Assembly (NCBI GenBank): GCA_001275005.1
Contig: JWZX01003119.1
Coordinates: 1-46,254, forward strand
DNA from: Chrysochromulina tobinii
Taxonomy: Eukaryota
Reading direction: 5' to 3'
DNA: 46,254 nucleotides
Shown here: positions 10,245 to 43,876 of the stretch, one piece after another
Layout of the letters: each line of letters starts with the position of its first letter
How positions within the stretch are numbered: position 1 is the first letter of the stretch
Made by a program: the position numbers and the translations under genes
Notes under the pieces: generated by a model
Seen by the model: only the letters and a program-made list of their open reading frames with translations
Databases searched by the model: none
What the model was told of the DNA's origin: nothing

Positions 10245-13200
10245 ATGGCTACAAGTAGCTCGCGGGGTATTCAGCGCGCCGGAGCGGAGCGCCTCTTCAG
10301 TCGTGCGCTGCACGACCTGCTGCTGCTGCCCGATGGCGTCGGCGGCTGGCACGAGCTCACGCCAGTGCAGGCGTGGCGGCTGCGCGACCGGCTCAAGACA
10401 GTGGCAGCCGCACTCGTGCTCTGCCTCAACGTGGGCGTCGACCCGCCAGATGTGATCAAGCCCGACCCGTGCGCGCGCCTCGAGTGCTGGCTCGACCCCG
10501 CATCGATGCCCGCGCAGAAGGCGCTCGAGGCCATCGGAAAGGCGCTGCAGGCACAGTACGAGTGCTGGCAGCCGCGCGCGTCCTACCGGCTGTGTGCCGA
10601 CCCGACGCTCGAGGAGCTGCGTAAGGTGTGCGTCGGGCTACGGCGCAATCACGGTGGCCGCGAGGAGCGGCTGCTTCTGCACTTCAACGGGCATGGCGTG
10701 CCGCGCCCATCGGTCAACGGCGAGCTGTGGGTCTTCAACCGATCGTTCACGCAGTACATCCCTGTGTCGGCGTACGATCTGCAGCTGTGGCTGGGCTCGC
10801 CGTGCATCCTGGTGCTCGACTGCTCGAACGCGGCGCGGGTCATCGAGGCGCTCGGCACCATGATGGCCGCGCCCGCCGCGGGCGGTGCCTCGGCTGGCGG
10901 CGCGGCTGGCGGCGCGAGCGGCGGTGCGAGCGGCGCATCGCCTGCCGATGGCGCTGGCGCAGGGGTCGGCGGCACAGCCAGAGGCGTGACAGGCGCGGGT
11001 GGTGGCAGCGGCGCTGGCGCGGCGGGCAGCGGCGGCGCGCTCGGAGCCGGCGGCGACGGCACCACCGGAGCAAAGGGCCCCGCCGTGGGCTCTCCCGGTG
11101 AGGGCGGGGCGGTGCTCGGCAAGGACGTGATTGTGCTCGGTGCTTGCGACTCGACGGCGCAGCTGCCGACGAACCCGGAGTTTCCAGCGGACGTCTTCAC
11201 GTGCTGCCTCACCACGCCGCTGCGCATGGCGCTGCGCTTCGCCTGCCGCAACACGCTGCTCTACCTTCCCTCTGGTCCGATCGATACGCTTCCGGGTGCA
11301 CTGGGCGACCGTCGCTCGCCTCTCGGGGAGCTGAACTGGATCTTCACGGCGATCACGGACTCGATCGCGTGGGACGTGCTGCCGCGTGAGCTCTTCCGCC
11401 GCCTCTTCCGCCAAGACCTGCTTCTCGCCTCTCTGCTACGCAACTTTCTGCTCGCGCAGCGCATCCTCTCGCGCGCGGGCCTCTACCCCGTCTCCGCACC
11501 CGCGCTGCCGCCCATGCACCACCACCCACTGTGGGAGTCGTTCGACCTCGTGATCGAGGCGGCCATCTGCGACGCGAACGCGCGGCGCGGGCGCGAGGCG
11601 CCGCCGCCGCCGCCCTCGCCCTTCTTCTCAGACCAGCTCACCGCATTCGAAGTTTGGCTGCGGCTCGGCTCGCGTGGCACGCGCCGTCCGCCCGAGCAGC
11701 TGCCCATCCTATTGCAGGTGCTGCTCTCGCCCACTGATGGCCGCTGATTGCTACTGATGGCTTCTGACTGATTGCTACTGATCGATTGCCACTGATTGCC
11801 ACTGATTCGGGCAGATGCTGCTCTCGCCCGATCTTGACGAACCTTTGATTGCCTCCCTCATCAGGTGCTGCTCTCGCCCACGCATCGGCTGCGCGCGCTG
11901 CTGCTGCTTGGCCGCTTCGTGACGCTCGGCGCGTGGGCGGTCAGCGAGATGCTCTCGGTCGGCATCTTTCCCTACATTCTCAAGCTCCTCCTCTCGGCCG
12001 CTTCCGAGCTGCGCCCACCCTTGCTCTTCATTTGGGCCAGAGTGCTCCTGCATGACTCGTCGTGTCAGGCCGACCTTCAGCGTGACGCGGCGCACGCCTT
12101 TTTCATCGACATCCTGCGCCCGTCGGCCACTGCTGAGACGACGCGCTCGGGGCAGACGCCGTCGTATGGGTGGGTCGAAGGGATGGGCGCACCGACACCC
12201 CCCGTGCCACACTGCCTACTGGCCCTCTTTGTACTTGCCGCCGTGTGCCGTCAGCAGCCGGAGGGGCGCGCCGCGTGCCTGCGCCAGAACCTGCCCGAGT
12301 TGCTCGCTCAGCAGCTCGATCTCGCCCTCGATCTCGATCTCGACGGCGATTGCGACGGCGGCGGCGACGGCGGCGGCGATGGCGGCGATGGCGGCGGCGA
12401 TGGCGGCGGCGATGGCGGCGGCGATGAGCGACGCGAAGCAGCGGCAGAGGTGGCGGCCCGCTGTGGGCTGGACAGCACGGTCGGCTCGCTGCGCTCCCAG
12501 TGGATCGTGTGGATCTGCCTGTGCACCTCCCAGCTCTGTGAAGAGGACCAAGCCGCTCAGGATGCCGTGCATGCATGCCGCCTTGACCAACGGCTGCTGC
12601 GGGTGCTCCAAGAGGTGGAGCCCGAGGCGCGCGCGGCCGCACTGTACGCGCTCACGGCCGTGTGCTCGAGCATGGCTTCCTCGGGCGCGCCCTCAGCGCC
12701 CACGACAACGCCAGCCTCGGGCGCGCCCTCAGCGCCCACGACGACGCCAGCCTCGGGCGCGCCCTCGGCGCCCACGACGACGCCAGCCTCGGGCGCGCCC
12801 TCAGCGCCCACGACGACGCCAGCAGAAGCAGCGTGTCCGGTACCAGTGGGCGCTGTCGTGGGCGCGTCTGTGGCTTCGCCACCCTCCGCCGCCGAGGACT
12901 GGCGGCTCGAGCTCGGAGCCGAGGCAGTGCTCACGATCGCGGACGGCTCTCCCATCGTGCGTGCGCAGCTCTGTCGCCTGCTGCTCACGCTCACGCGTCG
13001 GCACCCAGGCCGGTGTGCCGATGGGTGCCATCAGCTGCTCTGGCTCCGCGCGCAGTCGATGAGCACTTTGGGCTCCGTGCACGGCGGCGGCGGCTTGAGC
13101 AGCGGTGGGATGCTGCCCTTTTCATCCAGTGCGCTCGGAGCAGGCGTCTACACCACTGGAGGGGGGGGCGAGCTCGCGAGGGGAAGCGCCGCGCCGCAGC

Positions 13201-16200
13201 TGGCTGGACGCCCTCCCCTCCCCGGCGCATCAGATCTGTCGCAAGGGTACACGCGCCATCTACTCTCGCAAGGGTACATGCAGGAGGCGCCCGGCGCGGG
13301 CGGCGCCGGCGCCGGCGCCGGCGCCGGCTCGAGGAACAGCAGCAACAGCAGCCTGGATGCATGCGGCTCACCCGGCGGAGTTTCGATGGGTGGGGCGGCC
13401 GTGGGCACTGTCATGGGCGCTGTCGTGGGCACTGGCGGGGGTGAGGGCGTTGTCGTGGGCACTGGCGGGGGTGAGGGCGTGGGCAGCACCGGCGCGGAGA
13501 GCGTCGAGGGCATCGAGAGCCGCGTATCGCTCACTTCGCTCACTGGTCTGCCAAGGGGTATGAGCACGAGCGCCGGTATGGGCTCGAGCTCGCGCGAGCT
13601 CGACACGACGACCGTCGTATCGGGGCTGACCCCGACCCTCGGCCTCGGAGAAGCGTTTGCGAGCCATGCGATCATGATGAAGCATGCCATGGTGCTCGAG
13701 CCACGGATGATTGGACACTCTCTGGCGACCGCCGCTGAGCTCTCTGCGACCCTCTTTGCAGCGGCCATGAGGGTGACGGCCTCGGCCGCGAGCATGGCGA
13801 CGCCCACGGCGACGCCCAAGCTGTCGGCGGCGCATGGTGGCCAAGAGCAGCCGCCCCTGCGCGCCCGCGCCGTGCTGAGCGCTGTCCACGGAGGCAGCGC
13901 CCCCCGCCCCGCTGTCAAAGCGCCGCCTTCGCCACTGCGCGGTCAAAGCCTCTCGCCACTGCGCGGTCCAAGCATCGTCAATGAGGCGTTACAGATCGCC
14001 GAGCGTGTCACGGCCGCAGCGCGCGATGTCGCCGCCGCCGAGAGCGATGCCGCGGATGCGGCGGCCGCGATGCTGGCCGTCGAGGGCGGCGCCGTGGCGG
14101 CGGCGACAATTAAGCTGTGTGCGGCACTGATCCTGATCGCCCGGGACTCGGTGCCGCGCATCGCCACGCGCGCGCAGCAACAGTTGCGTGCCCTCGTGCC
14201 ACTCGCGTCCCTATCCTCGCCGATGCATCCCACCGCCACACCTCTATTGCCGCGCGCCGCCCCCACGCCTGAGATGTCGCGGCGCGCCGGCGCGAGCGGC
14301 GGCGGGGCTGGGTGTGTGCCCACGTCGGGCAGTGAGGACAGCGGCGCCGAGCGCAGCGGAGCTTTTTTTGGAGCGCGGCTGCAGCGGCCGATGGCGCTGG
14401 CGCTGGGGTCGGCGGCCGGTGGTGCCGGCAGTGCTGGCGCCGAGAATCTCGACGAAACGAGTCATCCGGGCATACCGCCATACACGGGAGCCATTCACAC
14501 GGGAGCCATTCACACGGGAGCCATTCACACGGGAGCCATTCACACGGGAGCCATTCACACGGGAGCCATGGCCATGCCACGTGGCGCTGTGCCGGCGCGT
14601 TCACTCACTACGACGCCGTTTCGAGATGGTACGCCGCCGGTGGCGCTGACCCCGGAGCCTCCTATGGGAGGGATTGCGAACGGTGCGGACGCGTTCGCTC
14701 AGCTGATGCCACGCGCCGAGCTGAGCGCCGAGTTGCCCCCTCCGCTCGAGCTGGGCGGCGACATGTACGAGTGGGCCACCCAGCAGCTCCACAGGGGCTT
14801 TCCTACCATCAGCGATCGCGGCGAGATCCAACCTCCCCGCGGGCAAGAGAGGCGTGCCCACCCATTTTTGGCTGTCGCGGCGGCCCTTGTCGACCCCGCC
14901 GTCGCGGCGGCGGCGGCGGCGGTGGCCGATGCCGCCAACGGCGGCGCGGGCGCCATATCGAGCGCCAACGGGGGCGCGGGCACCGGCGACGCCGGCGTCT
15001 CGACGCCGAGCACACTGGAGCGCCCCGCCAGACCCACGAAGAGCTATACGATGGCTTTTGGGGGGCTACGCATCGGCGGCGGCGACGACCGTGAACGGCA
15101 GCAGGCGGTGAGCCTCAAGTGTGAAGACCAGCTAGCAACCCTTGACAGCGGCTCCCCGCGCTGCTCGTCGCTAGCGCTCCATGCGAGTGAGCCGCTCCTG
15201 GTCGCCGCCTCGGCACGTGAGGAGGTCTCTGTGTGGAACTACAAGACGAAGCAGCGCATCAATGCCTTTGCCAACGCGAACCCGGCCGGCTCTCGCTGCA
15301 CCTCGATGCACCTGCTCGAATCGGCTGGAAGTCTCGTCAATGGGCATGCGTCCGGCTTACTCCTCGTCGGCTCCAGTGAAGGCGCCGTGCGTATCTGGCG
15401 TCAATGGGCGTTGCCTGGCGAGCAGCAGATGGTGGGCTCCTTTTTGGCAGCGGACCGGTCCGCTGCTGCCACCGAAGCAGCGAGTCTGCACGACAGTCGA
15501 CTGTTCACTGCGTACCAGCCTCAGGGTGCGCTCCTCAGCGTCGCGGCGAGCACCTCGAATGTCATCCGCCAGTGGGACCTGGTCGCCGAACGGTGCGCGC
15601 GCCAGCTCACAGTCGACGTGGCCGACGCCTTCTCCGTGCGCGCTCTCGCCTCGGACCAGCATTCATCGCTTCTCGTCGTGGGGGGTACCGACGGCGCGAC
15701 ACGTATTATCGACCCGCGACTTCCCTCCGCGGATTGCACCGTGGCCACGGTCGGCGCTTTCGCGTCGCGCGCGCACATCGCGCAGCTGACCCTGCAGACC
15801 TCCGATCGTCCCTGGGTCGCTATCGCCACGCATCTGGGCGACATGGGCGTGTGGGACCTGCGCCGCGCCGTATCGAGCGCTTCGGCCCTTCCCCACAGCT
15901 CATCGTCGGCCGCGCCACTCGTGCACACCATCACCTCGCACAAGTCTGGCCTCTCGGCCCTCTCGCTGCACGACCACCTGCCTCTGCTCGCCTCGGGCTC
16001 TCGCAATCAATTCATCAAGCTCTTCGACCTGACCGCGCTCCGCGACAACGCCGGCCCCGCACGTGAGCTCTCGACGATCCGTTACTTTGACGGCTTCCTT
16101 GGAGCCCGTATCGGGCCCGTCACGTGCCTCGCCTTCCACCCGACCAAGCCCCTCCTCGCCGTCGGCGCGACTGACTCCGTCGTCAGCATCTACTCATCGT

Positions 16201-16202
16201 GA
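10245..16202 (+). CDS. RPTOR: Regulatory-associated protein of TOR (Raptor/KOG1); exons 10245-11717 and 11865-16202
   Basis: RNC domain (WRLRDRLKT..ALVLCLNVGVDPPDVIK, LLHFNGHGVP, PADVFTCCLTTP, LGELNWIFTAITDSIAW), PPEQLPILLQ|VLLSPTHRLRAL across the intron, and a C-terminal WD40 region ending IRYFDGFLGARIGPVTCLAFHP. Confidence 0.96.
11718..11864 (+). other. GT-AG intron of Raptor with a duplicated splice junction
   Basis: Removal restores LLQ|VLLS. CAGGTGCTGCTCTCGCCCAC occurs at 11715-11734 and 11862-11881. Confidence 0.9.
12680..12823 (+). repeat. Coding 36-bp tandem repeat x4 (SGAPSAPTTTPA) in Raptor
   Basis: Four near-identical CTCGGGCGCGCCCTCAGCGCCCACGACGACGCCAGC units. Confidence 0.9.
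14483..14569 (+). repeat. Coding 15-bp tandem repeat (TGAIH) x5-6 in Raptor
   Basis: Repeated CACGGGAGCCATTCA. Confidence 0.9.
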
Positions 16203-16657
16203 GGGCGTGTGTCGCCCCGCGACGCGTGGCTTCGCATCAAGAGCGTCTCCAATTATAAGTGGCTGCCGCGAGCGGGGCTCGTGAGGCGCGTAATACTAGT
16301 AGAGAAACAAATGGCAGTACGCACGGATGTTTCTCTTTTAACCTAGTGCTGCATGGACACTGTGACACCCAACTCCCAAGGCGCGGAAACGTCGTACCCC
16401 CGTCCGTGCCGTGGCCCGTGCCGGTTCCCTGCCGGACGAGCGCACCCCGACCCCGGGCGCCGGAGCCGGAGGGGCGTTACTTAGTACATAGTAGTACGCT
16501 AGTACCGTGGTTCTATTTAAATAAAATGACAGTCGCACTCTGTCAGCACTCTGTGGTGTGACGTTGACGCATTGCGTGGAAACGAAGTTTCGTCAGACGA
16601 AAACCACCATCATATTCATCTAAAACTCCGCCACGCTTTTATTTTATATTTAGGTTT

Positions 16658-17536: not shown

Positions 17537-18057
17537 GATGCAAGCGCCACCTCAGCTCGAGAGTCCAATGCTCGTCCTCAGCTCGAGTGTTCAAAACAAC
17601 GCGTACGAAGCCTCATACACCGTACTCTACGGACTCCCGTGCACAGGAGCCACTATCACTATGGGCGGAGATGTGGCCAACACAACCTGTTTGAACATAG
17701 GCCGTTAATCGGCAATGCGTGGGGGTCAGAGAAAGCCGGCATGCCGGCTAAACAGCGATCAGCGCTGTACTTTTCTCGGTGTAGTCTGCCTCTCTGGACT
17801 CAGAAAGGGGATGCACCTGGGATGACACATGGTTAGTGACATGGGACTGGGGTCTGGGGACCATGCACTCGAGTATTACTGCTGCGCACCTACACGCTGC
17901 TCTGTACGACTGACGACTGTATCGGTATGAGGACTCGCACCTATGTGCGATAGAGGGGGGCATTCCCCTCCATCGCCCCCACCATCCCCTGGACGGGAGC
18001 ATGGCCGCATGCCCCTGTCCTCCCGCGAGAGCACTCCGAGGAGACATGCGAGGCAAC

Positions 18058-18729: not shown

Positions 18730-19009
18730 CGTCGTCAATCAGATGGCGGCGGCTTCCTGGGAGCAGCTCGACGAGGTAGAGGGCGATCCCGAACCCGAAC
18801 TGCGATGAACGTCAGTGATGATTCCAAATTGATGCAACTTCTTTACATGTACATCTCGTTTTGATGACAGTGCCACATGACAGTGCTCGAGTCGATGGGT
18901 ACGTCGAGGACCCTGGGAGGTGCGCGTGATTATTGTTTGCTACCTTCCTCCCTAAAAAGGGCTCCCAATTAATTGGCATCAGGATTCTTTCATTTTCTGT
19001 GCGACTTCG

Positions 19010-20950: not shown

Positions 20951-23900
20951 ATGGCGAACGCGACAGGCGCACGTCCTGCGACCGCCCCTTCCACCACCGA
21001 TGAGGGCGTGACCGTGGCTGTGCGCATCCGGCCGCTGCTCGCCCGCGATAAGGCTGAGGGTGCGCGCGAGTGCCTGCGCAAGGTCGCCGGCGAGCCGCAG
21101 GTGCTCATTGGCGCCGACCGCGCGTTCACCTACAATCACGTGTACGACCTGGCGGCCTCTCAGGAGGCTGTCTTCGACGGCTGCGTCAAGGGGCTCGTGG
21201 AAAGCGTACTCTCGGGCTACAATGCGACCATCTTCGCGTACGGCCAGACTGGCAGCGGCAAGACGCACACGATGGGCTCGAGCTGCTCAGCCGACGCGGA
21301 GATTCCCGAGGACACTGCGCTCACCGAGGACTCTGGGCTGATCCCGCGCGCGATCGCTGCGCTCTTCGCCGGCGCCGCGGCGACCGAGGGCACCGAGTGT
21401 CGCGCGACTGCCGCCTTCATCGAGATCTACTGCGAGGAGGTGCAAGATCTCCTCCAGTGGAATGCGGAGGAGAGCAAGCTCACGACACTTCCCATCCGAG
21501 AGACTCCCGACGGCAGCCTGACGTTGAGCGGCCAGAAGCGGCGCGCCGTGAGCTCGGTGGCCGAGGCGATGCGCGTGCTCGCCGACGGCTCCCGCAACCG
21601 CGCGACCGGCTCCACGGCGATGAATGCGACCTCGTCGCGCTCGCATGCCATCTTCTCTCTCGAGCTCGATCTCAAGGTGCGATGTTGGCCATCGGAGTGA
21701 CATCGGAGTGCCAACGGAGTGACTTCGGAGTGCCATCTGAGTGCCATCTGAGTGTCATCAAGTTCCACTGACGGGCAAGATGATAGTCCGACGTGTGAAA
21801 GGCAAGACCTTCTGAGTATGACCACTGATGGCCACTGATGACCACTGATGTGATGACCACTGATGTGATGACCACTGATGACCACTGATGTGATGACCAC
21901 TGATGACCACTGATGACCACTGATGACCACTGATGACAGGTGAAAGGCAAGACCTTCTCGCCCAAGCTGCACTTTGTCGACCTGGCAGGCTCTGAGCGTG
22001 CGAAGCGGACCGGGGCGAGTGGAGAGCGCCTCAAGGAGGGCATTGAGATTAACAAGGGTCTTCTCGCGCTTGGGAACGTCATCAACGCGCTCTGCGAGAA
22101 GCACTCTCACGTGCCCTACCGCGACAGCAAGCTCACGCGTCTGCTCCAGGTGAGTGCCCCTGATTGCGCCCCAGTGCTCCTGATTGCCACTGATTGCAAC
22201 CGAGTGCCCCTAACTGCAACTTGATTGCTTCTCGTCGAGAGCCGCTGATGGGTACTGATGTGCGCTCGTGCCGGTACTGCAGGATTCACTGGGCGGCAAT
22301 TCGAAGACGCTCATGCTCGCGTGTGTCTCGCCCGGAGATGCCGATCTCGAGGAGACGCTCAATACGCTCAAGTACGCGAACCGCGCGCGCCAAATTAAGA
22401 ACAAGCCGGTTGTCGCGCAGGACCCAATGCAGGCGCGCCTCTCCGAGCTGGTGGAGACGATCAGCACGCTGCAGACGCGCCTGACGCACTACGAGGCGGG
22501 CGGCGCGCCGCTGCCTCCCCTCGCGCAGCTGGGTGCGCTGGGGACGAGTGCCGCGGGCGGTGCGAGCGGCGCGGGCGCGGCCTCAGCCGACCAGGTGACG
22601 GCGTTGATGAAGCGCCACTGATCGCCACTGATTGCCACTGATTATGGCCACCGATGACCACCGATGACCACCGATGACCACTGATGGCCACTGATGGCCA
22701 CCGATGACCACCGATGACCACCGATGACCACTTCCTGATTGGCGCAGGTGAAGGCACTGATGAAGCGTGTGGCGCAGCTCGAGAAGGAGAATTGCATGCT
22801 GCGAGAGCGAATCGCACAGCATGTCGCTCCGCTCAGCGGAGTTGCGGGCGCGGCGGCGGCGGCGGCGACGGGCGAGGTGGGCACGGTGGAGCCAGCCTCG
22901 GAGGCGGCGGAGGGCGACGAGGGCGGCGAGGAGGCGGCGGCATATGCGGCCGAGGCGATGGAGGCGGAGCTCGAATTCCAGACCAAGCAAGGTGATTGGC
23001 GCTGAGTGCCACTGATGATCGCTGAGTCTCACTCTTGATAGTGCCACTGATGAATATGTCCTCTGATGAATATGTCAACTGATGATGGCTGCGTGCCACT
23101 GATGATCGCGAAGTCTCTCTCTTGATGGCGCCACTGATGATGGCGATGAATGTCCACTGATCCTTGCTCCACTCATGGCGCAGGTGAGCTGTCCGAGCAG
23201 CTCGAGACTCTGAATGCGTCCCTCGCCATCAAGCAGGCTCTCCTCGCGGCGCAGCGCGAGCGCGAGGGGCGCGGCAGCTCGGCTACTGAAGGCGGCGAGG
23301 GCGGCGTGGACCTGGCCGGAGGGGAGGGCGGCGTGACGGAGGATGTCAACTCACTGCAGCAGCAGCTCGCGAGCCTCGAAGTGAAGCTCGCCGCCGTCGA
23401 GACCGAGCGCGATGCCTTGGCCATGCGCCAGGTGCGCGCGTCGTCCCGAGCGCACATCACGGCGCTCTGAGAGCGATCTCGAACGAGCTCGATCGAGCTC
23501 GAGCCCGATGCCCGATGGAGATGATGTCGGCAAACATAATCTATCCCACTGACCGACTGAAAAGTCCTCATGATAGACGACCACTGCTCGCCACTGATCC
23601 ATGAAGCACCACCCCTTGCTTCAGCTCCCCACCCCTTCCCCTTTGCCCCAAACCCCTATCCCGTACTCTCACCGCCTTCCCTCACGCTGACCGTGCCGTG
23701 AACGGCGGTGCTGTGCCGGGTGATGCTGTCACGGGTGCAGGCGAGCGGGAAGGCAGCCGACGCGCGTAAGCTCGAGGCCCTCGAGGCGGAGATCGCGAGA
23801 TTGCGCCGGCAGCACGCGCAGCAGGCGACCGTCCTCCAGGTGAGTGCCACTGATGGCCTTTGATGGCCTCGGAGCGCCTTTGATCGCCACCCTTTGGTGC

Positions 23901-26858
23901 TCCAGGCGAAACGCGAGGCGGCGGAGCGCGTGGCGCAGCTGCAGAACGAGATCGAGCTCATCAGGGCCCAAAAGGCCGAAATCGGGCGGAGGCAGCGGGA
24001 GGAGGCCGCGTCGCACCGGGCACACAAGGTGGCGCGCGAGCATGAGTTTCGTCAATTGCAGCGCAAGGAGGAGCGGACGGCGTCGCAGCTCGCGAGGCTC
24101 GAGCTCGAGTACGAGAATGACGCCGTGATTGTGCCGTGATCGTGATTGTGTCGAGATTGTGTCGAGATCGTGATTGTGCCGTGATCGTACAATCCCTCTG
24201 CGGGGTGCCTCTTGATTGCCGCGGATTCCCTCTTGATGACCTTTTGGTTGCCTCTTGATAGCCGCTGATGCGCACTGGCTGGGTGCGCGCAGATACGCGA
24301 AGCAGGCGAGCGTGCTCAAGCGTAAGCAGGAGGAGATCGTCGCCGCGCAGAAGAAGATGCGCTCTCAGGAGGAGATGGCCAAGGCGGCGGCAGCCCGCCG
24401 ACAGGGAGCCCCCAGTGCAGCAACCGCCGGTCCGGGCGGCGGTCAAGGCGGCGGTCCGGGCGGCGGTCCCGGCGGCGGAGGGGGCGTCAACGGCGGCGGC
24501 ACGACTCCACGAATGCCTCTCGGGGGTTCGAACGGCAATGGCGCTCACAACGGCGCCCCGCCGCTCTCGGCACGCGGCACCAAGCCCGGGGGGGGGCTGG
24601 GGGGATCCTCGGGGTCTACCCGCCCGAGCGTCTCGATGGCCACCACGGCTTCGATGCAGGCGAAGCAGGAGGGTAAACGCGCTGATGAGGCCGACAAGGT
24701 GCGCGGGGTGCATCTCTCTGAGGTGGATCCTCTTGAGTGCATCTCTGAGTGCGCCTCTGGGTGTGCCTCTGATGACTTCCCTGATGACCTATCTGATGAC
24801 CTCGGTGAGCATTTTCGCTGAGCTTTTCGCCGTGCTTGCAGGCGGTGTCGGCGATGGCGGCGCGGCCCGCGGCATGGCTCAAGGAGGAGGTGACGGCCGT
24901 TACAGCAGGCCAGCAGCTTCGGGAGCAGGTGAGTGCGATGATTGGCACTGAGTGCTATGGATGGCTTCGGATGGCCACTGAATGCAACCGTTGCGCTGCT
25001 CCAGGTGGCAATGACGATTGAGCTCCGTCGTCAGTGTGCCCTCAAGCTGCAAGCCATCGAGCTGCGGGCGGAGGAGGCGTCACAGGCGATGACAGCCTAT
25101 GAGGGCGGCGACGCGAGCTCATCCGCGGCCGAGGCGGCGGCGGAGATGGCGTCACGCCAGGCGGAGGCAGAGGCCCTTCGCCTCAAGGTCGCTCATTACT
25201 CGTCGGAGCTGGTGAGCTTGCAGACGAAACTCGTTCACCAGGAGTCGTCGGAGACGGCGGTGGCGAAGCTCGAGGCGGTACCCGACCTGAAGCAGGCTAA
25301 GGCGATGCTCAAGGCGGCCTTCCCACAGGTGATTGCGACCGATGGCCTCTCGTCGCACTCATGGCGCTACTGATCCCTACCGATCCCTACCGATGATGGT
25401 CTGATGGGTGCAGATTGCGACTGCTTGCGACTGATTGCGGCTTTGACTCATTTTTCTCTCATTACGACTCATTGCGGCTATGTCCTCCTTGTCATCCATT
25501 CCACAGCTCGTCAACCTGCAGCTGAGCGTGCACAAGCGCGAGCAGCAGCTCGAGGCCAAGGCGCGCGAGGTGAGCGATGCCAGCTGATTGCTCATGATTG
25601 CTCATGATTGCAGCTGGAGGCCAAGGCGCGCAAATGAGCGACGCAGTTGAGCTCGCCTCGTGTGCAGCTGATTGCGATTGACTCGTCTTTCATGCGTTGC
25701 ATGCAGGTGAGCGACGCTGTCGAGCTCGCCTCCTCACTGCGTGTGCAGCTCGTGCGTGAGCGCAAGCAGGCCGACACACGCTCACACGAAGCACACACCG
25801 CGATGGCCCTCGCCGACGAGCGCGCGCGAGCGCTGCAGCGTCAGCTCGAGGCGCTGTCGCGCGCGAACGGGGCTGCCCAGGGCGGCGCGGCACAGGACGC
25901 GAGGGCTGCCGTGGCTTCAGAGATGGAGGCCGTGCCGCCGCTTCCCGCGCTGAAGAGCGATGTGGGCAGCTGTGCAGACCTTGACAAGAGGCTCGCGCAG
26001 ATCAAGGCGAAGCATGCTGCGGCACCGAGCTTTGCACTGCCCATCGCCCCTCCGCCAGCGCCAAAGGGCGCGGCGGAGGCGGCGGCTCTGAAGGCCGCGC
26101 CTGCGGCCGCTTCGTCAAAGCAGGCTGCTCGTCGTCTGTCTATGATCAAGCTCGCACGCAAAGGGGGGGAAGAGGAAGAAGAGGAGGAGGACGAGGAGGG
26201 GAGTGAGGATGAAGAGGACGAGGAAGAGGACGAGGAAGAGGAAGAGGACAGCGATGTCGATTGGGAGGAGACTGAGGAGGCTCAGATGGTCACCTCGAAG
26301 CGAGAGCGTTCCAAGGCGAAGGAGGCCGCCCCTGTACCGGTACTCGAGCTCGGACTTCGCCCGCGCCGTGGCGGGCGCCGCTCCGCCGACCAGGCAGAGG
26401 ACGCGGGGGACAAGCCCGCGCCGCCTGATGAAAAGGGGACGCCCGCGGAGGTTGGGGGGGGTGGCCTGACGAAACTGGAGGCGAGCTCCGCCGCCAATCC
26501 GGGCGCATCACAACCGACGCCGCCGAACGCGCGACCGTTTGCGCAGATGCAGTCCAAGGAGGCGGGAGATGCGGGCGAGATCGAGCTCACGAGCCTTGAG
26601 AACGTCAAGGGTGCCGCCGCCGCCAAGAAGCTGGGCGCGAAGCCGCGTGCGCCCACGACGACGCCTTCCGCCGCCGCCGCCGCCAAGCCGCGCGCCGCCT
26701 TGGGGCGCATCGATGGCAACGCCGCCGGTGCGGATGTTGCGGGTGGGTTCTCGAAGGCGGTGACGAAACCTGCATCGGCCAAGGGCGAGGCGGGTGGCAC
26801 TCGTAAGTTGCTCAACACGACGCAGGTGGTCTCGGTCAACTTGGTTGACAACGAGTGA
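20951..26858 (+). CDS. Kinesin-4 family motor (KIF4/KIF21/KIF27-like), 12 exons
   Basis: Motor motifs [68 protein letters not shown], then a long coiled coil. Exons 20951-21676, 21940-22149, 22283-22594, 22748-22991, 23184-23431, 23741-23839, 23906-24108, 24293-24698, 24842-24928, 25005-25328, 25507-25569, 25707-26858; all GT-AG and frame-consistent. Confidence 0.9.
21818..21937 (+). repeat. Intronic 10-bp array (GACCACTGAT)n
   Basis: Tandem GACCACTGAT units running up to the acceptor of kinesin intron 1. Confidence 0.9.
22614..22731 (+). repeat. Intronic 10-bp array (GCCACTGATT / GACCACCGAT)n
   Basis: Tandem 10-mers filling kinesin intron 3. Confidence 0.9.
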
Positions 26859-33070: not shown

Positions 33071-33328
33071 GTAAACGGTTCACGCGGAATTCGACACCCT
33101 GACTTGTAACCTTTGGCAGATATTCGCGCATTCAGCCCCCATTGAGGGGTATTCTTCTGGAACCAGAGGGACGCTCGATTCCGATTTCCGATAGGCGATC
33201 TCGCCCGGTGTCGTCAACAAGCTCGCCAGGCACTTCATTAGTGTCCTTCGCCCCCGAACAGCAGCCGCCGCGCGGCAGGGTCGCTGCCGACCCGTGATCA
33301 AGGTATTGAAAAGACCGAACGAGCCCCA

Positions 33329-36305: not shown

Positions 36306-39108
36306 TCACTGGAGGCGCGCGGCGGGCGCGAGCAGCCGGATGGCATGGAGCAGAATCTGCGCCATCAGGTAGCGCCCCGCGTTGAGGTAGTGGAATGCCG
36401 AATTCTTGGCAAACTTGATCGCATGCGGCGTCTGCTGGAAGACAGCATCGTAGGTGGCAGGGTAGTTGTCGACGTACACCATACCCGCCTCCTCGACGAG
36501 AGGGCGCATATGGCGCGAAAAGGCCGCCTGCTGCCGGAAGGTGTTGACCGGGTCGAAGTTGAACGCGGGCGAGCGGAAGATGGTGAGCGTGCGTCGGCCG
36601 AGGCATGCATCTGAAGTGCGCAGAGCCGCACGCATGCCGCCGAGCGTGCTCCTCCATGCGGACGCGCCGTGGAAGGCTCCAAACTGCGGTCCAAAGATGA
36701 TGGCGTCGGCGCCGTAGCCGACGGACTGTGGGGAAGGGGGGGGGCGCGCCGTGGTGAGCACTTGCATGCAGGGCTGCTGGGTCCACATTGAGGCCGCCCA
36801 CCTGTGGGCCCCACGTGCGGAAGGTCTCGTCGAGCAGTTCGGATGTCTGCCCATCGTACAAGTAGAGCATCGACATGGATGGGTGGCCTGTGGGGATCCA
36901 ACTTTTGGCGGACTCGAGCGCATCGGCCCATGTGCGTCCAACGCAAAGCATCGCCGTCGCGCGGCACGTCCATGCCTGGTCAACGGGCTCGCGGCACGGA
37001 CGATGGCCCTGGCAGCGCCCCCGGAAGGCCCAGCAGTCGTCGTAAAACGGCGTGAGCTTCGGCCGGCTGATGCCGTACCCGAGCAATTTGCTCTTCTCAC
37101 CCAGGGCTGCTTGGAACGCACGCGCCGCCTCGACCCAAATCGCCGAGCCAGGCGCAAACGGCTTGCACACGTGTCTGCCGCGGCACTCGGGGTGGCGAGC
37201 GCAGGAGGCGATCTTGCCGGTGCACTCACACGCCTTGTCCTCGCAGAAGCCGTTGAAGGACTCGCGCTCGCCGTGATAAGTGGGGAAGTAGAGCCAGGCG
37301 TTGGGCTCCGTCGACGAAAACACCTGCCGGCGGCGCCTGCGTAGGCCGCCGGCAAGGGCGCTAAGGGCGCTACCCACGCTGCCCGCGCCCGCGTCCCCGT
37401 AGCGATCCGCAGGCTCCTCTTCATAGTGGACGGAGACGTTGGCCATCCAATGGCGCGGCTCTCCGAGCTTCTGCTTCCACTCGGGCGTCGAGAAGAAGGC
37501 CTCGAGCTCACGTAAGACGCGCGCGCGCACGCGGGTCGCCAGGCCGCTACCGAGCCCCTCAGCCGCCGTTGCGCCAGCGCCTCCACCGCCTCCACCGCCT
37601 CCGCCGCCTCCACCGCCGCGCCGGCGGCGCCGCCTTTCGGTCGTTCCTGGAGCCGTGCTGGCGAGCAGCGCAGCGCCGCCCGCGATGCCTTCGGCGCCCG
37701 GAGGCACGTACAGGACGCCGTCGGGGTGGGAGCCCGCCCAGGAGAGCGTGCGCAGCCCGCACTGCATTGCCGTCTTGCCTGCGTGCTGCATCTGCATCGC
37801 GGCCAGCTCCTCCGCCGGCACGAGCAGCCGGAAGGAGACTAAGGGGCGCCACTCCCGCCCGGCCCATTTTGTACTACGCCAGTTGCCTAATATGGGCTCG
37901 GAGCCGCCGCCGCCGCCGGGATCGCGCCACTGATGCAGCCGGCCCGGGTTGAAGACCGAGTGCGAGTCCTTGAGCCCACAGATCGGCTCGGTGTGCGGCA
38001 TCGAGAAGCGGTGCTCGCCGGTGGTCAGGTCAACTGTGAAGAGCTGCGACGCGTGGTAGCCGCGGGTCATGTTGTCTTGGTCCCAGATCCACGAGCGCGC
38101 GAGCGCGTTCGCGTCCTTGAAGGTGGGCACCTCGACGTCCGTGAAATTGTTCAGCTGCCGGTGCGCCGCTGGCCCAGCGAGCAGATCGAGCAGGGTGTAC
38201 ATCTGGCGACGTACCACCGAGTTACCGAAGAAGACCAGATTCTTGCTGCCGAGGAGGCAACGGGTCTCTGCGGTGCCGACCCAGCGCCGACCGCACTCGC
38301 TCGCCGACGGGGAGGCGGATGACGAGCCATTGTAGGCCCCGATCCCGGCACCACCGCCCAGCGTGGGCAAGGCACGTGCGCCGTCGAGCTTCGCCGCTGG
38401 ACCTTCGAGCCCCGGCGCAGCGCCGTCGATCGTCGCTGGTGGTGCGTCGACGAGACCCTCCGCGGTCCAGCGCGCGTCACCCGCCCGGCCGAGGCACGTG
38501 CGCGTGCGGAGCGAGAGCTGCGACATGTCCACCTGCCGGAAGGGCGCGCACACCGCGCCCGCTGGCAGCGGCGCCACCGGCAGCTGGAGGTGGCGGCGCA
38601 TCTGAAGGCCGATATCTGAATTGTCGATCATGCTCGACTCCTTCTGGAGGCAGTCGGCCTGCCGGTCGAGCTCCTCCTTGCTCGCGAGGGACGCCTCCTT
38701 AGGCTTCGGGCAGCCGCCCTGGAACTGCTGCAGCTTCGCATTGTCCTCAGCGATCACTGCGAGCTTGTGGTCGCGGTACATCTTGGCGCGCACCTTCTTG
38801 TAGAGCGTCTGCAGCCGGGCGAGCGCGTCCTCGCCCGCACGCGTCGCCGTGAGGATGGCCGCCTCGTGGTTCCGCAGCTCAGGAAGCGTGAGGGACGCGT
38901 CGATAGCCTCCTCGCTCGGCACTTGCGCAGGGATGCTGCCACCTGCCGCGCCGGCCAAGCTGGCCGCTGCGCCGGCAAAGACGGCGCTCCCGGCCATGCC
39001 ACCCGATGATGTCCACTCGGCGTGGCTCGCGCGGCCGCCGCGACCGCGGCCACGGCCGCGGCCACGCCAACCGCGCCCTTTTTTGATGTAGTCGATTGAG
39101 TTCGGCAT
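36306..39108 (-). CDS. Hypothetical protein with SGNH/PC-esterase-like motifs; exons 39108-36802 and 36725-36306
   Basis: CLLGSKNLVFFGNSVVRRQMYTL resembles the GDS..R block. The C-terminal exon has TIFRS, VYVDNY and SAFHY...LMAQILL. The 76-nt GT-AG intron 36726-36801 joins the two long ORFs in frame. Confidence 0.65.
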
Positions 39109-39264
39109 GGGTTCAATCCGCGTGTGAACCCGTTTTTCCTCACGAAATTTTTCACACCGTTCGCACTCCAAACACAAAAACACTCACGCATGGTATGGTT
39201 TCCGTCCGGGTGTGGACGTGCGGTCGCACCTGCCATCGCGCCGGGACCCGGGATAAAAGATCAT

Positions 39265-42200
39265 TTACGAGCTGCTCATTCCGCCGTCCGCGACGCCGCT
39301 GCCGCTCCCGCCATCCTTGCCGCCGCCGCCGCCGCCCTTCTTATGGCGCTTCTTCGGCTTTCCGCCCTTGCCCTTCCCTTCCGGGATCGGCGAGACCTCA
39401 CTGGCGGGGCTGCTTTCGTGCCCGCCGATTCCCCCGAAGGTGCGCGGCGCGTCGCTCCGGGCACTCGGTGAGGCGGCCAGGAAGCTCTGGTCGGCCGCGT
39501 TGGGCTCGATGTCGGCGAAGAAGGAGTCAATGAGCGCGTTGAAGACCGTGTGTGGCCCCTCGGGCCACGCGAGCATCGAGAACCCCATCTCCGTGAGCTC
39601 CAGAGTGTGCACCTGATGAAGGGGACACTCCGTGTCGATCAGATGCAATCAGATGCAATCTGACGCAATCAGACGCAATCGGACGCAATCAGACGCAATC
39701 AGATGGCCCTGACCTGATGAAGGGTACACTCCGTGTCGACAAGATGCACTCAGACCCAATCAGACGCAATCAGACACAATCACCTACTTGTCGATCAGGT
39801 GCAATCAGACCCAATCAGATGGCAATCAGATGGCCCTCACCTCAGCCTTGCCCGGCCCGGCGCGCGTGATGAGAAGGTCGCATCGAAACGCGACCGTTGG
39901 CTCGGCGCTGCGGCAGCGTAGCCACGTGAGCCAGTGGCGCACGAGCCGGCTCGCCTTTCGCTCCGCATCCTCCATAGCGACGCTATCGTTCGCGAACCAG
40001 GTCGAGATTGCGGCAGATCGCTCGAGCTTTACAAAGTCGCGTAGGTAGCCGTCCGGATCCACCCGCTCGCAGGTGGAATAGATCAGGTGTTCGATGCGCC
40101 CGTTGACCACGAAGCAGCGTAGCTCAAAGTGGTTCTTGCAAAAGTCCTGCACGAGGATTGCGGTGGACTCCACACCCTGGGTGGTGACCAGTCCTTGCAT
40201 AGCCTCGGCGAGCTGTGCTTCCCCCCGGAAGATGCGTACCTAATTAGGGAGGCACTCGCAGGTGCTCAGAGGCCATCAGAGTCCATCAGAGGCCACCAGA
40301 GGCCATCAGAGTCCATCAGAGGCCATCAGAGGCCATCAGAGGCCATCAGAGGCCATCAGAGGCCATCAGAGGCCATCAGAGGCCATCAGAGGCCATCAGA
40401 GGCACTCAGAGGCACTCAGAGGCACTCAGAGGCACTCAGAGGCACTCAGAGGCACTCAGAGGCACTCAGAGGCACTCAGAGGCACTCAGATGGCACTCAA
40501 TGACACTCAGAGGCAATCAACGGCGCTAGAGGCACTCAATAGCAATCACCTCGCCCTCGCGGATCAAGATGAAGGAGACGCCCGGGTCGCCCTCCCGAAA
40601 GAGGAGATCACCCTCGCTGAAGTCGACCGACTGGAAGGCGTTGAGCACCGTCTCACGCTCGGATGAGGAAAGGTACCTGTGGGGGGACACAGCGCCGTCC
40701 TGAGCACTTGCATGCTGGGCCGTTGCACGCTCGGATGAGCGGAGGAGTCCCGAATGAGGGGCGCCGTCCTGAGCGCGCCCTTCATGGAACTTGTAATCGA
40801 GCCATCAGGCCAATCAAGGGCAATTACCGAAAGAGGGGCGCCGTCCTGAGCGTGTCCTTCATGATCTTGTAGTCGAGCTGCAGCTGCAGAGGGCCGAGGA
40901 GCTTGACGAACTCTTCGCGCTCGAGCAGGATGGCCGTGACGCGGCCCAGAGCGATGCAGTCGGCGGCGCGGGGTTCGTCACGGAGCAGCGCGCGCTCCCC
41001 TGATGATGGAGGCAATCAATCATCAGGCGCACACAGCACACAGGCGCCATCAGACGCCAACAGACGCCATCAGTCACGCAGGGTTCGTCACGGAGCCGTT
41101 CGCGCGCGCTCACCAAAGTACTCCGATGGCAATCAGACGCAATCAGACGCAATCAGACCCTCACCAAAGTACTCCGACGGACCATAGGTCTTGACATGCT
41201 TCTGGTTGACGAAACACTGGACCTCGCCCTCCTTGACAATGAAGAAGCTGTGCCCCGGCTCGTTCTGACGGATGATCACCTGGGATCCGGAGGAGGGCCG
41301 TCGAGTTTCGTTACAGCAGCCGTCGAGTTTCGTTACAGTCACAATCACAGGGCCATGCGAGGCTGTGCAGGGCTTTCGAGTTTCGTTACAGCGGCAATCA
41401 CAGGGCCATGCGAGGCTGTGCAGGGCTTTCGAGTTTCGTTACAGTCACAATCACAGGGCCATGCGAGGCTGTGACTATCACAGTGCCATCAGTGCCATCA
41501 GTGCCATCAGTGCCAATGGCAACATAACTCAAATTTGCTCAGAGGCCATCAAGGGCACTCACCTCGCCCGGCTGGTACTCGCGGTGGGTGCACTCCTCCA
41601 AAATCGCCTCCCGTTCATGCTCGCTCAGATGGGACAGGAGCGGTACGTTGCTCAGCACCTGTGTGGGGAAGTGGGCGCGCCGTGGTGAGCGCTCGCATGC
41701 GGGGGGCACAGGAGCGGCACGTTGCGCTCGCGCCGTGGTGAGCACCTCGCGCGTAAAGGACATCTCCACCAACTCGGTCAGCGGGCCGGTGATCTCAATT
41801 AACGTCTTGCGCTCAATCTTGGCGAGCACAACGGGCGTCGTCGCGAGCACGTCGTACGCGCGGGGTTCGTCACTTAAGAGCGAGCGCATGCCGAAGTAGT
41901 CGCAGCGCTGCAAGGTGCCCATCACAACGCCGTCGGGGAGGACCTGCCAAATATGGGAACAAACATATGGTTCATCAGCTCAGCTCGGCGCCCGTTCAGC
42001 TCGCCGTGGATTCATCAGCGTAGCTGCCTAATATGGGATCAAACATATGGTTTCGTCAGCGTACCTGGTTGATGGAGCCCTTGAGGATAATGTAGAGGGC
42101 AGCTCCGATCTCGCCGTGCGAGACCACCTGTGGGGGAAGGGCGCCGTGGTGAGCACTTGCATGCAGGGTACTGTTGAGGGCAGATCCGATCTCGCCGTGC

Positions 42201-43876
42201 GAGATCACCTTTTGGCCTGCCTCGAAGTGCATCTCGACGAAGGCGTCCGCAATCTGGTCGAATCTCGCCTGCGTACAGTCAATCAGTGGCAATCAGTGGC
42301 AATCAGTGGCAATCAGTGGCAATCAGTGGCAATCAGTGGCAATCTGGTCGAATCTCGCCTGCTCGAGCCCCTTGAGGATGCTGATGGCCTTGAGGGCGCG
42401 GCTTATGGCATTGCGCGTATCCATCGCGTCGGTGATCGAGATCTCGCGGTACACCTGACGAGGGAGGCAATCAGAGGTCATCGGAGGTCATCAGAGGCCA
42501 TCGGAGGTCATATGAGGTCATCCTCCGAGGTCATATGAGGTCATCCTCCGAGGTCATCAGAGGTCATCTCCGAGGCCATCCGAGGTCATCAGCGAGGTCA
42601 TCAGCGAGGTCGCGCGAGATGCACACCTTGCGAGGGAGCGCCCATAGCTTCGCCGTGTCCGACGAACACACAACTGATGCCTGGCGCGGCTGATTGTACC
42701 TGATGACGGAGTTCATCACGAACGCCATCAGAGAGGCCATCCACGGCAAATCCGAGAGGCAATCCGAGGTCATCAGAGGTCATCAGCCGCAATCAGCCGC
42801 AATCAGCCGCAATCAGCCGCCATCAGAGAGGCTATCCACGGCAAATCCGAGAGGCAATCCGAGAGGCGATCAGAGGTCATCAGCCGCCATCAGCCGCCAT
42901 CAGCCACCATCAGCCACCATCAGCCACCATCAGCCGCAATCAGCCGCCATCAGCCACCATCAGCCGCAATCAGCCACAATCAGCCGCCATCAGCCACCAC
43001 CATCAGCCGCCATCAGCCGCCATCAGCCTCCATCAGCCTCCATCAGCCGCCATCAGCCGTCTTCACATTCACAGCATACATGAGCCCGAGCTCGCCGAAC
43101 GCGTCGCCCCGCTCACGCATCTGGACGAGCTTCACATGCTCCGAGTCCTCCCACGACGAGAAGCGCGAGACCACCGTCTTCACATTCACAGCCTCGGGGC
43201 GTAGATTCATCTTCGATGCGAGGCTCTCGGAGATTGCGTCGGAGATGGCGGGAGGTTTCCAGCCAACCGCGTGGTTGTTGGCGCGCATGTCGCGGAAGAT
43301 GTGGAAGGTGCCACTGTCCACGACGTAAAAGTTGTCGGTCGCGCCGCCGGAGAGCATCTCGCCTTGCTGGATGACGACCTCATCGCGCGTCGTCTGGACG
43401 GCCACCATCACGTCGATGGTGAGATCTCGCTGGCTCTCGGACATCTCGTTGAACAGGATGCAGCCGTCGATCGCTTTGCGGAGCATCGCGCGTGTGGCTG
43501 GGTCCTTGGCGCCCTGGGACGCTGTGTCCATGAGCACGCGCGTCGACTGGCGGCTCACCATGGCGGACGTATTCTCGCCCACGACGCCCGCGCGGCGCCC
43601 GCGCGAACCTTGACGTTCCAGCAAGCCCTCGATCACCTTGTCGTCGAGCGTCTTCTGGCTGCGCTCGTACGAAAATGTGGTGGTCGTCTGACGCTTGGTC
43701 TTCCTGAAGGAGCTGCTGGAGGAGACGACGGGCCTCTCATCACCCGGAGAGGACAACGGTGCCGCTTTGGCGGGAACGCTGCTTCCGCAGCCCCTGCGCA
43801 CGAGTGTCAGCCAGGGCGATTGAGCAGCGGCAATCGAGGAGCGTGCAACAGGAGCCAGCAGCAGGAGTGCCGACAC
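39265..43876 (-). CDS. Multi-cyclic-nucleotide-binding-domain protein (PKA-R/PKG-like N-half) joined to an ATP-grasp-like C-terminal domain; 12 exons, start codon unresolved
   Basis: RGRRAGVVGE hinge; CNB cassettes FGELGLMYNQPRQAS, FGMRSLLSDEPRAYD and FGERALLRDEPRAAD; partial fourth CNB; then ILVQDF..FELRCFVVNG..FRCDLLI..LELTEMG. Exons (minus) 43876-43080, 42699-42627, 42454-42359, 42268-42209, 42127-42065, 41943-41746, 41658-41563, 41279-41165, 40999-40828, 40676-40550, 40239-39841, 39612-39265; all frame-consistent. Confidence 0.75.
40262..40512 (-). repeat. Intronic 10-bp satellite with two blocks, (GGCCATCAGA)n then (GGCACTCAGA)n
   Basis: About 24 tandem 10-mers with a unit switch at about 40400. 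Confidence 0.95.
41304..41473 (-). repeat. Intronic ~53-bp tandem repeat x~3
   Basis: GAGTTTCGTTACAGTCACAATCACAGGGCCATGCGAGGCTGTGCAGGGCTTTC repeated within intron 41280-41562. Confidence 0.85.
42281..42344 (-). repeat. Intronic perfect 10-bp array (AATCAGTGGC)x6
   Basis: Direct reading; fills a 90-nt GC-AG intron. Confidence 0.95.
42770..43058 (-). repeat. Intronic 10-bp array (CATCAGCCGC / AATCAGCCGC)n
   Basis: Direct reading; intron 42700-43079. Confidence 0.9.

What the first reader, a model, noticed from the sequence alone, without database searches (positions are those of the whole stretch)
11715..42362. Introns built around duplicated splice junctions: apparent recent intron gain by local exon duplication
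Seen: in three unrelated genes the intron begins with, or contains, a copy of the adjacent exon. Raptor: 20-bp perfect repeat at 11715-11734 and 11862-11881, plus a third copy at 11812-11829. Kinesin: 21795-21813 equals exon start 21940-21958 (19 bp), and 22592-22614 vs 22745-22767 match at 20/23. cNMP gene: 42249-42272 = 42339-42362 (24 bp perfect); intron 42128-42208 opens with a 34/37 match to the next exon; 43057-43075 = 43174-43192. Established: duplicating an exonic AG|GT yields both a donor and an acceptor (tandem-duplication model of intron gain), and introner transposons use short target-site duplications similarly. Inference: repeats of 19-37 bp are longer than typical DNA-transposon TSDs and still near-identical, which points to an ongoing duplication- or repair-driven intron-creating process.
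Basis: partly seen in the sequence, partly recalled or inferred. Interest (0 to 1): 0.88.

Follow-up and report, generated by a model that had tools for sequence, protein, structure and literature searches.

The report
Algal introns carrying copied exon starts
In a freshwater haptophyte alga, many predicted introns contain a 17-83-base copy of their own gene's neighbouring coding sequence joined to pieces shared with other introns, a pattern that likely marks introns built by copying an intron end into an exon during DNA repair, although later rewriting of older introns is not excluded.

Summary
All six repeat pairs are exact as reported. Ten of 25 modelled introns carry a copy of their own gene's exon; 8 beat 300 control windows. 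It is not plain tandem duplication. Copies make up 5-55% of each intron, four introns start with the next exon's first 17-44 bases, and none ends with more than 7 bases of the previous exon. The rest is shared intron material: sense-only 10-base arrays or a ~45-base acceptor module. Best reading: an intron 3' end is copied in just after an AG|GT site, the duplicate supplies the donor, and rounds repeat. Distant haptophyte orthologues mostly lack these introns, but part of that search favoured intron-poor genes. The Raptor and cNMP-intron-6 sites recur in distant lineages. Intron 6 is in 29 of 29 close relatives, so not every case is recent. No RNA junction was shown for a copy-bearing intron. 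The scan noted a similar footprint elsewhere in this genome and in other genomes.

The parts
10245..16202 (+). Raptor (RPTOR) gene, 1936 aa, one modelled intron
   Evidence: one open frame after splicing; Raptor homologues
11718..11864 (+). Raptor intron, 147 nt, phase 0: starts with 17 nt of exon 2; 10-mer array; inner copy at 11811-11829 whose GT is mutated; acceptor end shared with cNMP introns 2 and 8
   Evidence: 4 in-frame stops if read through
20952..26858 (+). KIF4/KIF21-type kinesin gene, 11 modelled introns
   Evidence: one open frame of 1356 aa; homologues
21677..21939 (+). Kinesin intron 1: inner 19-nt perfect copy of the exon-2 start at 21795-21813 between two arrays
   Evidence: RNA contig X13 record 4 stops at 21674 with 25 letters left; no intron here in L001 DNA
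22595..22747 (+). Kinesin intron 3: starts with a 17/20 copy of the next exon, then arrays
23432..23740 (+). Kinesin intron 5: no exon copy, no array; site shared with relative P0002
   Evidence: 58-aa in-frame read-through at the same site in P0002
24929..25004 (+). Kinesin intron 9: no exon copy; site probably shared with P0002
   Evidence: P0002 runs into non-homologous sequence and stops just after this site; RNA contig X13 record 6 starts at 25002
25570..25706 (+). Kinesin intron 11: inner copy (25610-25669) of the JOINED junction, -25..+44, with the inner AG|G destroyed
   Evidence: 55/60 aligned bases
36726..36801 (-). Intron of an unrelated gene carrying the ~45-nt acceptor module without an exon-start copy; its last 7 nt equal the upstream exon end
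39264..43923 (-). Multi-cNMP-domain gene, 11 modelled introns
   Evidence: one open frame of 862 aa; orthologue P0213
40677..40827 (-). cNMP intron 9: inner 83-nt copy (40720-40802) of the JOINED junction, -51..+29, inner GT mutated; ends in the acceptor module
   Evidence: 70/80 aligned bases
41000..41164 (-). cNMP intron 8: inner 53-nt copy (41077-41129) of the JOINED junction, -16..+33, between arrays
41659..41745 (-). cNMP intron 6: copy of the next exon's first ~28 nt, interrupted by a piece of the module, then the acceptor module
   Evidence: simpler copy-plus-module form in sister-lineage ORFs
42128..42208 (-). cNMP intron 4, 81 nt: 44-nt copy of the next exon start plus the acceptor module (42128-42168); 3n, no stop
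   Evidence: 39/44; module alignment
42269..42358 (-). cNMP intron 3, GC donor: 20-nt perfect copy of the next exon start merging into a 10-mer array over 6 shared bases
42700..43079 (-). cNMP intron 1: 19-nt perfect copy (43057-43075) of exon sequence 94-113 nt upstream; the array unit also matches the reverse complement of the next exon's +2..+14

Best explanation
These introns were likely built by templated insertion: the 3' end of an existing intron is inferred to have been copied into an exon 15-45 bases after an AG|GT (or AG|GC) site, with synthesis then likely resuming back at that AG|G, so the bases in between appear twice. The first copy supplies the donor and the 5' arm. The imported piece (a 10-base array with its acceptor, or the ~45-base acceptor module) supplies the likely branch region and the acceptor, and splicing would restore the old reading frame exactly. 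Later rounds of the same copy-switch-return event inside an intron would leave the inner copies of the joined junction, and their inner splice signals then decay. Shown: the copies, their one-sided geometry, the shared modules, the short homologies at copy ends. Inferred: splicing of these introns, the order of events, that the event created the intron rather than rewrote it, and the enzyme (microhomology-guided repair synthesis of the polymerase-theta type is recalled knowledge, not tested).
For: Geometry: intron start equals next-exon start for >=15 nt in 4 of 25 introns; intron end equals previous-exon end for >=15 nt in 0 of 25; controls 0 of 600 each. Own-exon copy is 5-55% of each of the 10 copy-bearing introns, and the rest aligns to other introns. 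The acceptor module sits at the 3' end, in sense, in 4 introns of 2 unrelated genes with a near-fixed 5' start, and 3 of the 4 carry an exon copy before it. It has no donor of its own. The array motif occurs 77 times in sense and 0 times in antisense in 4,222 intron bases, and 18 times in 42,032 other bases. Overlap between copy end and intron-library sequence averages 2.6 nt over 10 of 17 scorable ends against 1.03 +-0.32 in the null, 0 of 2000. The inner GT or AG is lost in 3 of 4 inner junction copies. Absence in relatives: six full-length kinesin ORFs on 5-18 kb contigs run through all 11 sites. L001 DNA, found with exon 2 alone, has no intron at kinesin sites 1-3. The window nests among these rows (95/94). 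The closest relative P0002 shows introns only at sites 5 and 9, which have no copy. Raptor: 2 of 2 close haptophyte-like ORFs on 12-14 kb contigs cross the site. cNMP sites 3 and 4 are crossed by 4 of 4 informative distant orthologues, two of which show intron-like read-through elsewhere (read by eye). The sister lineage has the simpler copy-plus-module form of intron 6.
Against: No spliced RNA junction was seen for any copy-bearing intron; cNMP introns 4 and 6 are 3n without stops. The kinesin protein search took only ORFs of 423 aa or more, which selects for absence at sites 1-3. A vertebrate exon boundary lies at the Raptor site (P0133, P0127). A distant haptophyte ORF (P0259) reads through an intron-like segment at the cNMP intron-6 site. 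A distant eukaryote locus has an intron at kinesin site 2 (L009; 1 of 59 classifiable loci of 80). No intron-less allele: intron 6 is present in 29 of 29 informative ORFs (34 listed of 78 cluster members) and the Raptor intron is implied in 3 of 3. Two copies (kinesin 1, cNMP 1) do not touch a splice site, so the copying also acts inside existing introns. Copy ends were set by alignment, which inflates the microhomology (my estimate about 0.4 nt per end), and 7 of 17 ends could not be scored. The sample is 25 introns in 5 genes of one window.
Confidence: 0.5

Rival explanations
1. Old introns, rewritten. The positions are older. Local template switching between the two AG|G ends replaces an intron's 5' part with the start of the next exon, or inserts nearby exon sequence, while arrays expand and homogenise. 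The relatives found are intron-poor through loss.
For: Raptor site equals a vertebrate exon boundary; intron-6 site shared with distant P0259; kinesin site 2 shared with L009; copies that touch no splice site; intron 7 keeps its position but changes its 5' sequence between window and sister lineage; cNMP intron 11 has duplicated itself internally (sequence); no intron-less allele found.
Against: Needs repeated independent loss of most introns in at least four haptophyte lineages. Intron-bearing relatives (P0002, P0236, P0259, P0289) mostly have their introns at other sites. Inner joined-junction copies are simplest from an uninterrupted template. AG|GT sites are hot spots of parallel gain (43 of 90 Daphnia gains were parallel; PMC4202315 abstract).
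Confidence: 0.25
2. A short non-autonomous retroelement (or excised intron RNA) is inserted by target-primed reverse transcription, which makes long, variable target-site duplications. It is an introner that carries its acceptor and takes its donor from the duplication.
For: Variable 20-46 nt direct repeats around inserts; fixed 3' end with short homology to the target (3 of 25 introns share >=6 nt with the upstream exon end vs 10 of 600 controls); module with near-fixed 5' start; marine Chrysochromulina MAGs are listed with up to 827 introners (PMC9860276 supplement); an earlier scan note reports over a hundred repeat-flanked introns of one family in lake metagenomes (e1-2577349, unchecked).
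Against: Inserts differ in kind (several array units, the module) and units often resemble local sequence; copies from 94-113 nt away, inverted matches and nested copies are not a target-duplication pattern; no A-rich tail; no partner reverse transcriptase was looked for.
Confidence: 0.15
3. Plain tandem duplication of an exon segment containing AG|GT, with arrays expanding afterwards inside the new intron.
For: The repeats include AG|GT or AG|GC in the introns that start with a copy; the mechanism has in vivo support (PMC3443670 passages); exons here also hold tandem repeats.
Against: It predicts an intron made wholly of downstream plus upstream exon sequence. The upstream part is 2-4 nt in these introns and never above 7 nt exact in 25; copies are 5-55% of the intron; perfect copies stop abruptly at shared modules.
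Confidence: 0.05
4. The three inner joined-junction copies are patches copied from spliced mRNA or cDNA into existing introns.
For: They reproduce the exon-exon join without intron over 49-80 nt of CDS.
Against: None spans a second junction; two successive DNA events explain them; in cNMP intron 8 the copy has GT where the present exon starts GG, i.e. it looks like the pre-intron or donor state, not today's mRNA.
Confidence: 0.04
5. Assembly artefact at repeat arrays.
For: Short-read contigs break at the arrays.
Against: Copies are diverged and interrupted, not exact; X8 contigs carry them with unique flanks; 29 database ORFs from close relatives read through the intron-6 copy.
Confidence: 0.01

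Closest known systems
Break-repair neointrons of Daphnia pulex (Li et al. 2014, PMC4202315; abstract, outline and passages seen)
   Same: [quoted passage not shown]
   Different: Daphnia repeats are 4-12 bp, here 20-46 bp; the filler here is recognisably shared intron material (arrays, acceptor module); Daphnia introns are polymorphic for presence, none was found polymorphic here.
Introner-like elements of Symbiodinium and Polarella glacialis, classes 4/5 and 6/8/10 (bioRxiv 10.1101/2020.10.14.339549; passages and section 5 read) and introners in general (PMC9860276, PMC12130899; passages)
   Same: Element carries the 3' splice site and takes the 5' splice site from the target duplication; strong phase-0 bias (20 of 25 here).
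   Different: Their duplications are short and fixed per class (3-9 nt) and the whole intron is the element. Here the duplication is long and variable, forms the whole 5' arm, there are no terminal inverted repeats, and the introns are mosaics. The figured Chrysochromulina introner has 4-bp duplications and carries its 5' site, the opposite arrangement.
Intron gain by tandem genomic duplication (Yenerall and Zhou 2012, PMC3443670; passages seen)
   Same: A duplicated AG|GT gives donor and acceptor context, and the coding sequence is unchanged after splicing.
   Different: Only the downstream part is duplicated and 45-95% of the intron comes from elsewhere.
10-11-bp strand-biased intronic tandem repeats of Emiliania huxleyi (Read et al. 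2013; recalled only, paper not held; not found by searches)
   Same: Short-period, sense-strand repeat arrays concentrated in haptophyte introns.
   Different: I recall no link there to exon copies or intron birth; unverified.

Membership tests
Introner (TE-derived intron family) | Similarity between unrelated introns reaching both intron boundaries | tested here: not met
   Shared part is the 3' ~45 nt or internal arrays; 5' arms differ; criterion from PMC9860276 methods passage
Introner (TE-derived intron family) | Related copies in unrelated genes | tested here: met
   Module in 4 introns of 2 genes; array motif at least twice in 18 of 25 introns
Introner, DNA-transposon type | Short fixed-length target duplication (3-9 nt) | tested here: not met
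   20, 23, 24 and 46 nt
Introner, DNA-transposon type | Terminal inverted repeats | tested here: not met
   Longest terminal inverted match 1-3 nt in 5 of 5 inserts
Introner / non-LTR retroelement | Autonomous partner (transposase or reverse transcriptase) sharing the element's ends | not testable with these tools
   No whole genome held
Non-LTR (target-primed) insertion | Variable-length target duplication with fixed 3' end and variable 5' truncation | tested here: inconclusive
   Variable duplication and fixed 3' end met; the module's 5' start is near-fixed rather than variably truncated; only 4 copies
Tandem genomic duplication intron | Duplicated segment contains AG|GT | tested here: met
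   AG|GT in 3 and AG|GC in 1 of the 4 introns with terminal repeats of 15 nt or more
Tandem genomic duplication intron | Intron consists of the duplicated downstream plus upstream exon sequence | tested here: not met
   Copy is 5-55% of intron; upstream part 2-4 nt
Break-repair neointron (Daphnia type) | Direct repeat of exon terminus at the other intron end, above background | tested here: met
   4 of 25 vs 0 of 600 controls at 15 nt or more
Break-repair neointron (Daphnia type) | Absent from outgroups | tested here: inconclusive
   Absent in most haptophyte orthologues found, partly by a biased search; Raptor and intron-6 sites recur in distant lineages
Break-repair neointron (Daphnia type) | Presence/absence polymorphism among close relatives | tested here: not met
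   cNMP intron 6 in 29 of 29 informative ORFs; Raptor intron implied in 3 of 3; other introns untested
Spliceosomal intron | Removed from RNA at the modelled sites | tested here: inconclusive
   X13 RNA contigs stop at or within 6 nt of four modelled kinesin boundaries with unmatched letters beyond; no joined junction among the 15 joints shown of 251; cNMP and Raptor junctions have no RNA check

The most novel reading that the evidence does not exclude
Ordinary intron 3' ends are themselves the mobile template in haptophytes: with no dedicated transposon, they are copied (from DNA or from excised intron RNA) into exons behind AG|GT sites, a 20-45-base duplication supplies the missing donor, and each lineage spreads its own 10-base repeat this way. 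That would be a genome-scale, self-feeding route of intron gain that introner screens miss, because the introns are mosaics and low in complexity.
Probability: 0.25. Interest if true: 0.85.

Novelty: new variant of a known kind. Interest (0 to 1): 0.62.

Why it matters
Where new spliceosomal introns come from is a long-standing question, and most gained introns keep no trace of their source. Here 10 of 25 introns in one window keep readable copies at several ages, including nested rounds and decayed inner splice sites. If the gain reading holds genome-wide, it joins two known routes (break-repair duplication and intron-end copying) in a culturable alga. It would also be a route that the published introner screen could have filtered out, since that screen required similarity to both intron ends and removed low-complexity families (PMC9860276 passages). 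If the rewriting reading holds, it is a warning that exon-like intron ends do not date an intron. Either outcome can be decided from existing haptophyte genomes.

Tried and rejected
No whole genome is held, so no genome-wide count. Read laying on 10200-27000 at 88% likeness was swamped by genome-wide repeats: 15 of 251 joints shown, none an intron. The cNMP stretch has no RNA result, so those junctions stay unchecked. Protein search with cNMP exon 1 gave 1 weak hit. The single metagenome scan with kinesin exon 2 read 6 of 64 parts and gave one haptophyte orthologue among 80 loci and no close strain. Motif scans for more DNA of this lineage: 1 chimeric hit in viral contigs, 0, 0 in prokaryote genomes, 4 hits of which the one read (L085) was bacterial; related-locus scans in viral contigs were empty. 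Most of the 150 cNMP hits are paralogues and were not used for intron positions. Rejected: assembly artefact, DNA-transposon introner, plain tandem duplication. Literature searches returned no description of exon-copy introns in haptophytes; the library lacks most subscription journals. In the PMC9860276 spreadsheet (cut when stored) 'tobin' occurs twice, both in the table of surveyed genomes, and a 10-base piece of the module had no hit; its PDF supplement and bioRxiv supplements could not be read and may bear on novelty.
Full report
Setting. The window is eukaryotic DNA of 64.4% G+C. The best named protein hits are Prymnesium parvum (57% for kinesin exon 1, 78% for the Raptor region), and runs holding the stretch are mixed cultures and freshwater metatranscriptomes. 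It is therefore a freshwater haptophyte. A Chrysochromulina tobinii-like species is my inference: that genome has 63.4% G+C and about one intron per gene (PMC4580454 passages). No whole genome is held.

Observation. All six repeat pairs are in the sequence at the stated coordinates, and the 34/37 match holds. I modelled 25 introns in five genes; each gene gives one open frame, 20 of 25 introns are phase 0 and one has a GC donor. Eight of 25 match their own junction region better than all 300 control CDS windows, and a ninth has p=0.013. A tenth copies exon sequence 94-113 nt upstream. The signal falls steeply with distance: 16 of 100 windows within 60 nt, 2 of 149, 0 of 404, 2 of 2062, and 18 of 10410 in other genes.

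Anatomy. The repeats are one-sided. Four introns start with 17-44 nt of the next exon. None ends with more than 7 exact nt of the previous exon, and controls give 0 of 600 either way. Own-exon copy is 5-55% of each intron. The remainder is shared among introns. One kind is 10-base arrays, whose core motif occurs 77 times in sense, never in antisense, and 18 times in the 42 kb outside introns. The other is a ~45-base acceptor module at the 3' end of four introns in two genes, with a near-fixed 5' start and no inverted ends. Copy ends overlap the shared material by 2.6 nt on average (10 of 17 ends scorable; null 1.03, 0 of 2000), with some inflation from how ends were set. New here: kinesin intron 11 and cNMP introns 8 and 9 hold inner copies of the joined exon-exon junction. 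Counting the Raptor inner copy, 3 of 4 inner junctions have lost their GT or AG, as expected if the outer sites are the ones in use. Copy identity runs from 100% to about 85-90%, so the events differ in age.

Are they spliced, and are they real? RNA contigs of run X13 stop at 21674, run 23900-24108 and start at 25002, each with unmatched letters beyond, close to four modelled kinesin boundaries. No joined junction was among the 15 joints shown, and only intron 1 of these is copy-bearing. The cNMP and Raptor junctions have no RNA check. Eight of the ten 3n introns have in-frame stops; cNMP introns 4 and 6 do not, but orthologues have no matching insertion there. DNA contigs of X8 carry the Raptor and kinesin copies, though X8 may be the source. 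Independent ORFs from relatives read through the intron-6 copy.

Relatives, for gain. Six full-length kinesin ORFs from 5-18 kb contigs cross all 11 sites. That search needed 423 aa or more, so it selects for absence at sites 1-3. L001, found with exon 2 alone, shows at DNA level no intron at sites 1-3. The window nests among these rows (95/94). The nearest row, P0002, reads through an intron at site 5 and stops just after site 9, both copy-free in the window, and crosses the other seven sites it covers. Two Raptor ORFs at 88-89% identity cross the Raptor site. cNMP sites 3 and 4 are crossed by P0213, P0234, P0236 and P0259; the last two show intron-like read-through elsewhere (by eye).

Relatives, against. 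A ray isoform skips a segment ending exactly at the Raptor site and a coelacanth entry starts there, which implies a vertebrate exon boundary (P0133, P0127). P0259 has an intron-like segment at the cNMP intron-6 site; it begins exon-like and continues as a peptide repeat that a 10-base array reproduces. L009 has a 159-nt intron at kinesin site 2. These may be old positions or parallel gains at AG|G sites. Intron 6 is present in 29 of 29 informative ORFs (34 listed of 78 members): 18 of window type and 11 of a sister lineage at 86% identity with a simpler copy-plus-module form. Three of three strain-level Raptor ORFs start at exon 2. So there is no sign of polymorphism, and at least one copy predates a lineage split.

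Mechanism. The simplest single process is copy, switch, return. A strand copies 15-45 nt past an AG|GT site, switches by short homology to the 3' part of another intron, copies to its AG, and returns at the upstream AG|G. The duplicate gives the donor and enough length, which the donor-less module needs; a second round gives the inner junction copies without any cDNA. This is inference (0.5). The same switching could rewrite an old intron's 5' end (0.25), and copies that touch no splice site show that it does act inside introns. Target-primed reverse transcription of a short element or of intron RNA would give a similar product (0.15). Plain tandem duplication (0.05), mRNA patches (0.04) and artefact (0.01) fit poorly.

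Known systems. It works most like Daphnia break-repair neointrons, whose junction repeats are 4-12 bp (PMC4202315), and like dinoflagellate introner classes that carry the acceptor and take the donor from a 4- or 8-nt duplication (bioRxiv 10.1101/2020.10.14.339549 section 5). It fails membership of DNA-transposon introners (long variable repeats, no inverted ends, no full-length similarity) and of plain tandem duplication. Introners are reported in marine Chrysochromulina MAGs (PMC9860276). Nine searches found no account of this pattern in haptophytes, within a library that lacks most subscription papers. Earlier notes of this scan report a 15-bp-flanked intron family in the same genome and exon-copy introns in other eukaryotes; they are unchecked leads, not support.

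Verdict. The feature is real and enriched, richer than reported, and a new variant of known intron-gain footprints. Gain is favoured but unproven, and 'recent' does not hold for every case. Interest 0.62.

Noticed in passing
window 39613-39840 (-): cNMP intron 11 is an internal duplication of itself: an inner acceptor-like end is followed at once by a GT near 39713, giving twin introns that could be removed in one step or two.
   Followed up: no
window 39264-40240 (-): After intron 10 (310 nt, almost all 10-base array) the cNMP gene continues in frame into a domain unlike the orthologue P0213; a true fusion, or a join at the array.
   Followed up: partly
window 42700-43079 (-) and 22150-22282 (+): Inverted matches to nearby exon: the array unit of cNMP intron 1 equals the reverse complement of the next exon's +2..+14, and kinesin intron 2 has a reverse match to -70..-43. 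Could be snap-back copying or chance.
   Followed up: partly
window 41944-42064 (-): cNMP intron 5 ends in a third kind of acceptor module, twice within the intron; the sister-lineage ORF P0209 translates the same end.
   Followed up: partly
window 4195-4291 (+): The only intron of a small membrane-protein gene holds a decayed form of the ~45-base acceptor module, so the module may be old.
   Followed up: partly
window 19546 and 19116: Three runs (X16, X15, X8) lack one base at 19546 and read T for G at 19116: probably errors in the window's assembly, the first shifting the frame of the gene there.
   Followed up: no
window 12315-14569 (+): In-frame tandem repeats in Raptor exon 2; strain-level ORFs are 1389, 1403 and 1406 aa against 1445 here, so local duplication is active in exons too.
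   Followed up: partly
L081 2740-3060: A viral contig ends in a haptophyte-like stretch with the acceptor module; likely a chimeric contig end.
   Followed up: no
L085 4935-5005: A bacterial contig has a similar 10-base array between two genes; read as coincidence.
   Followed up: no
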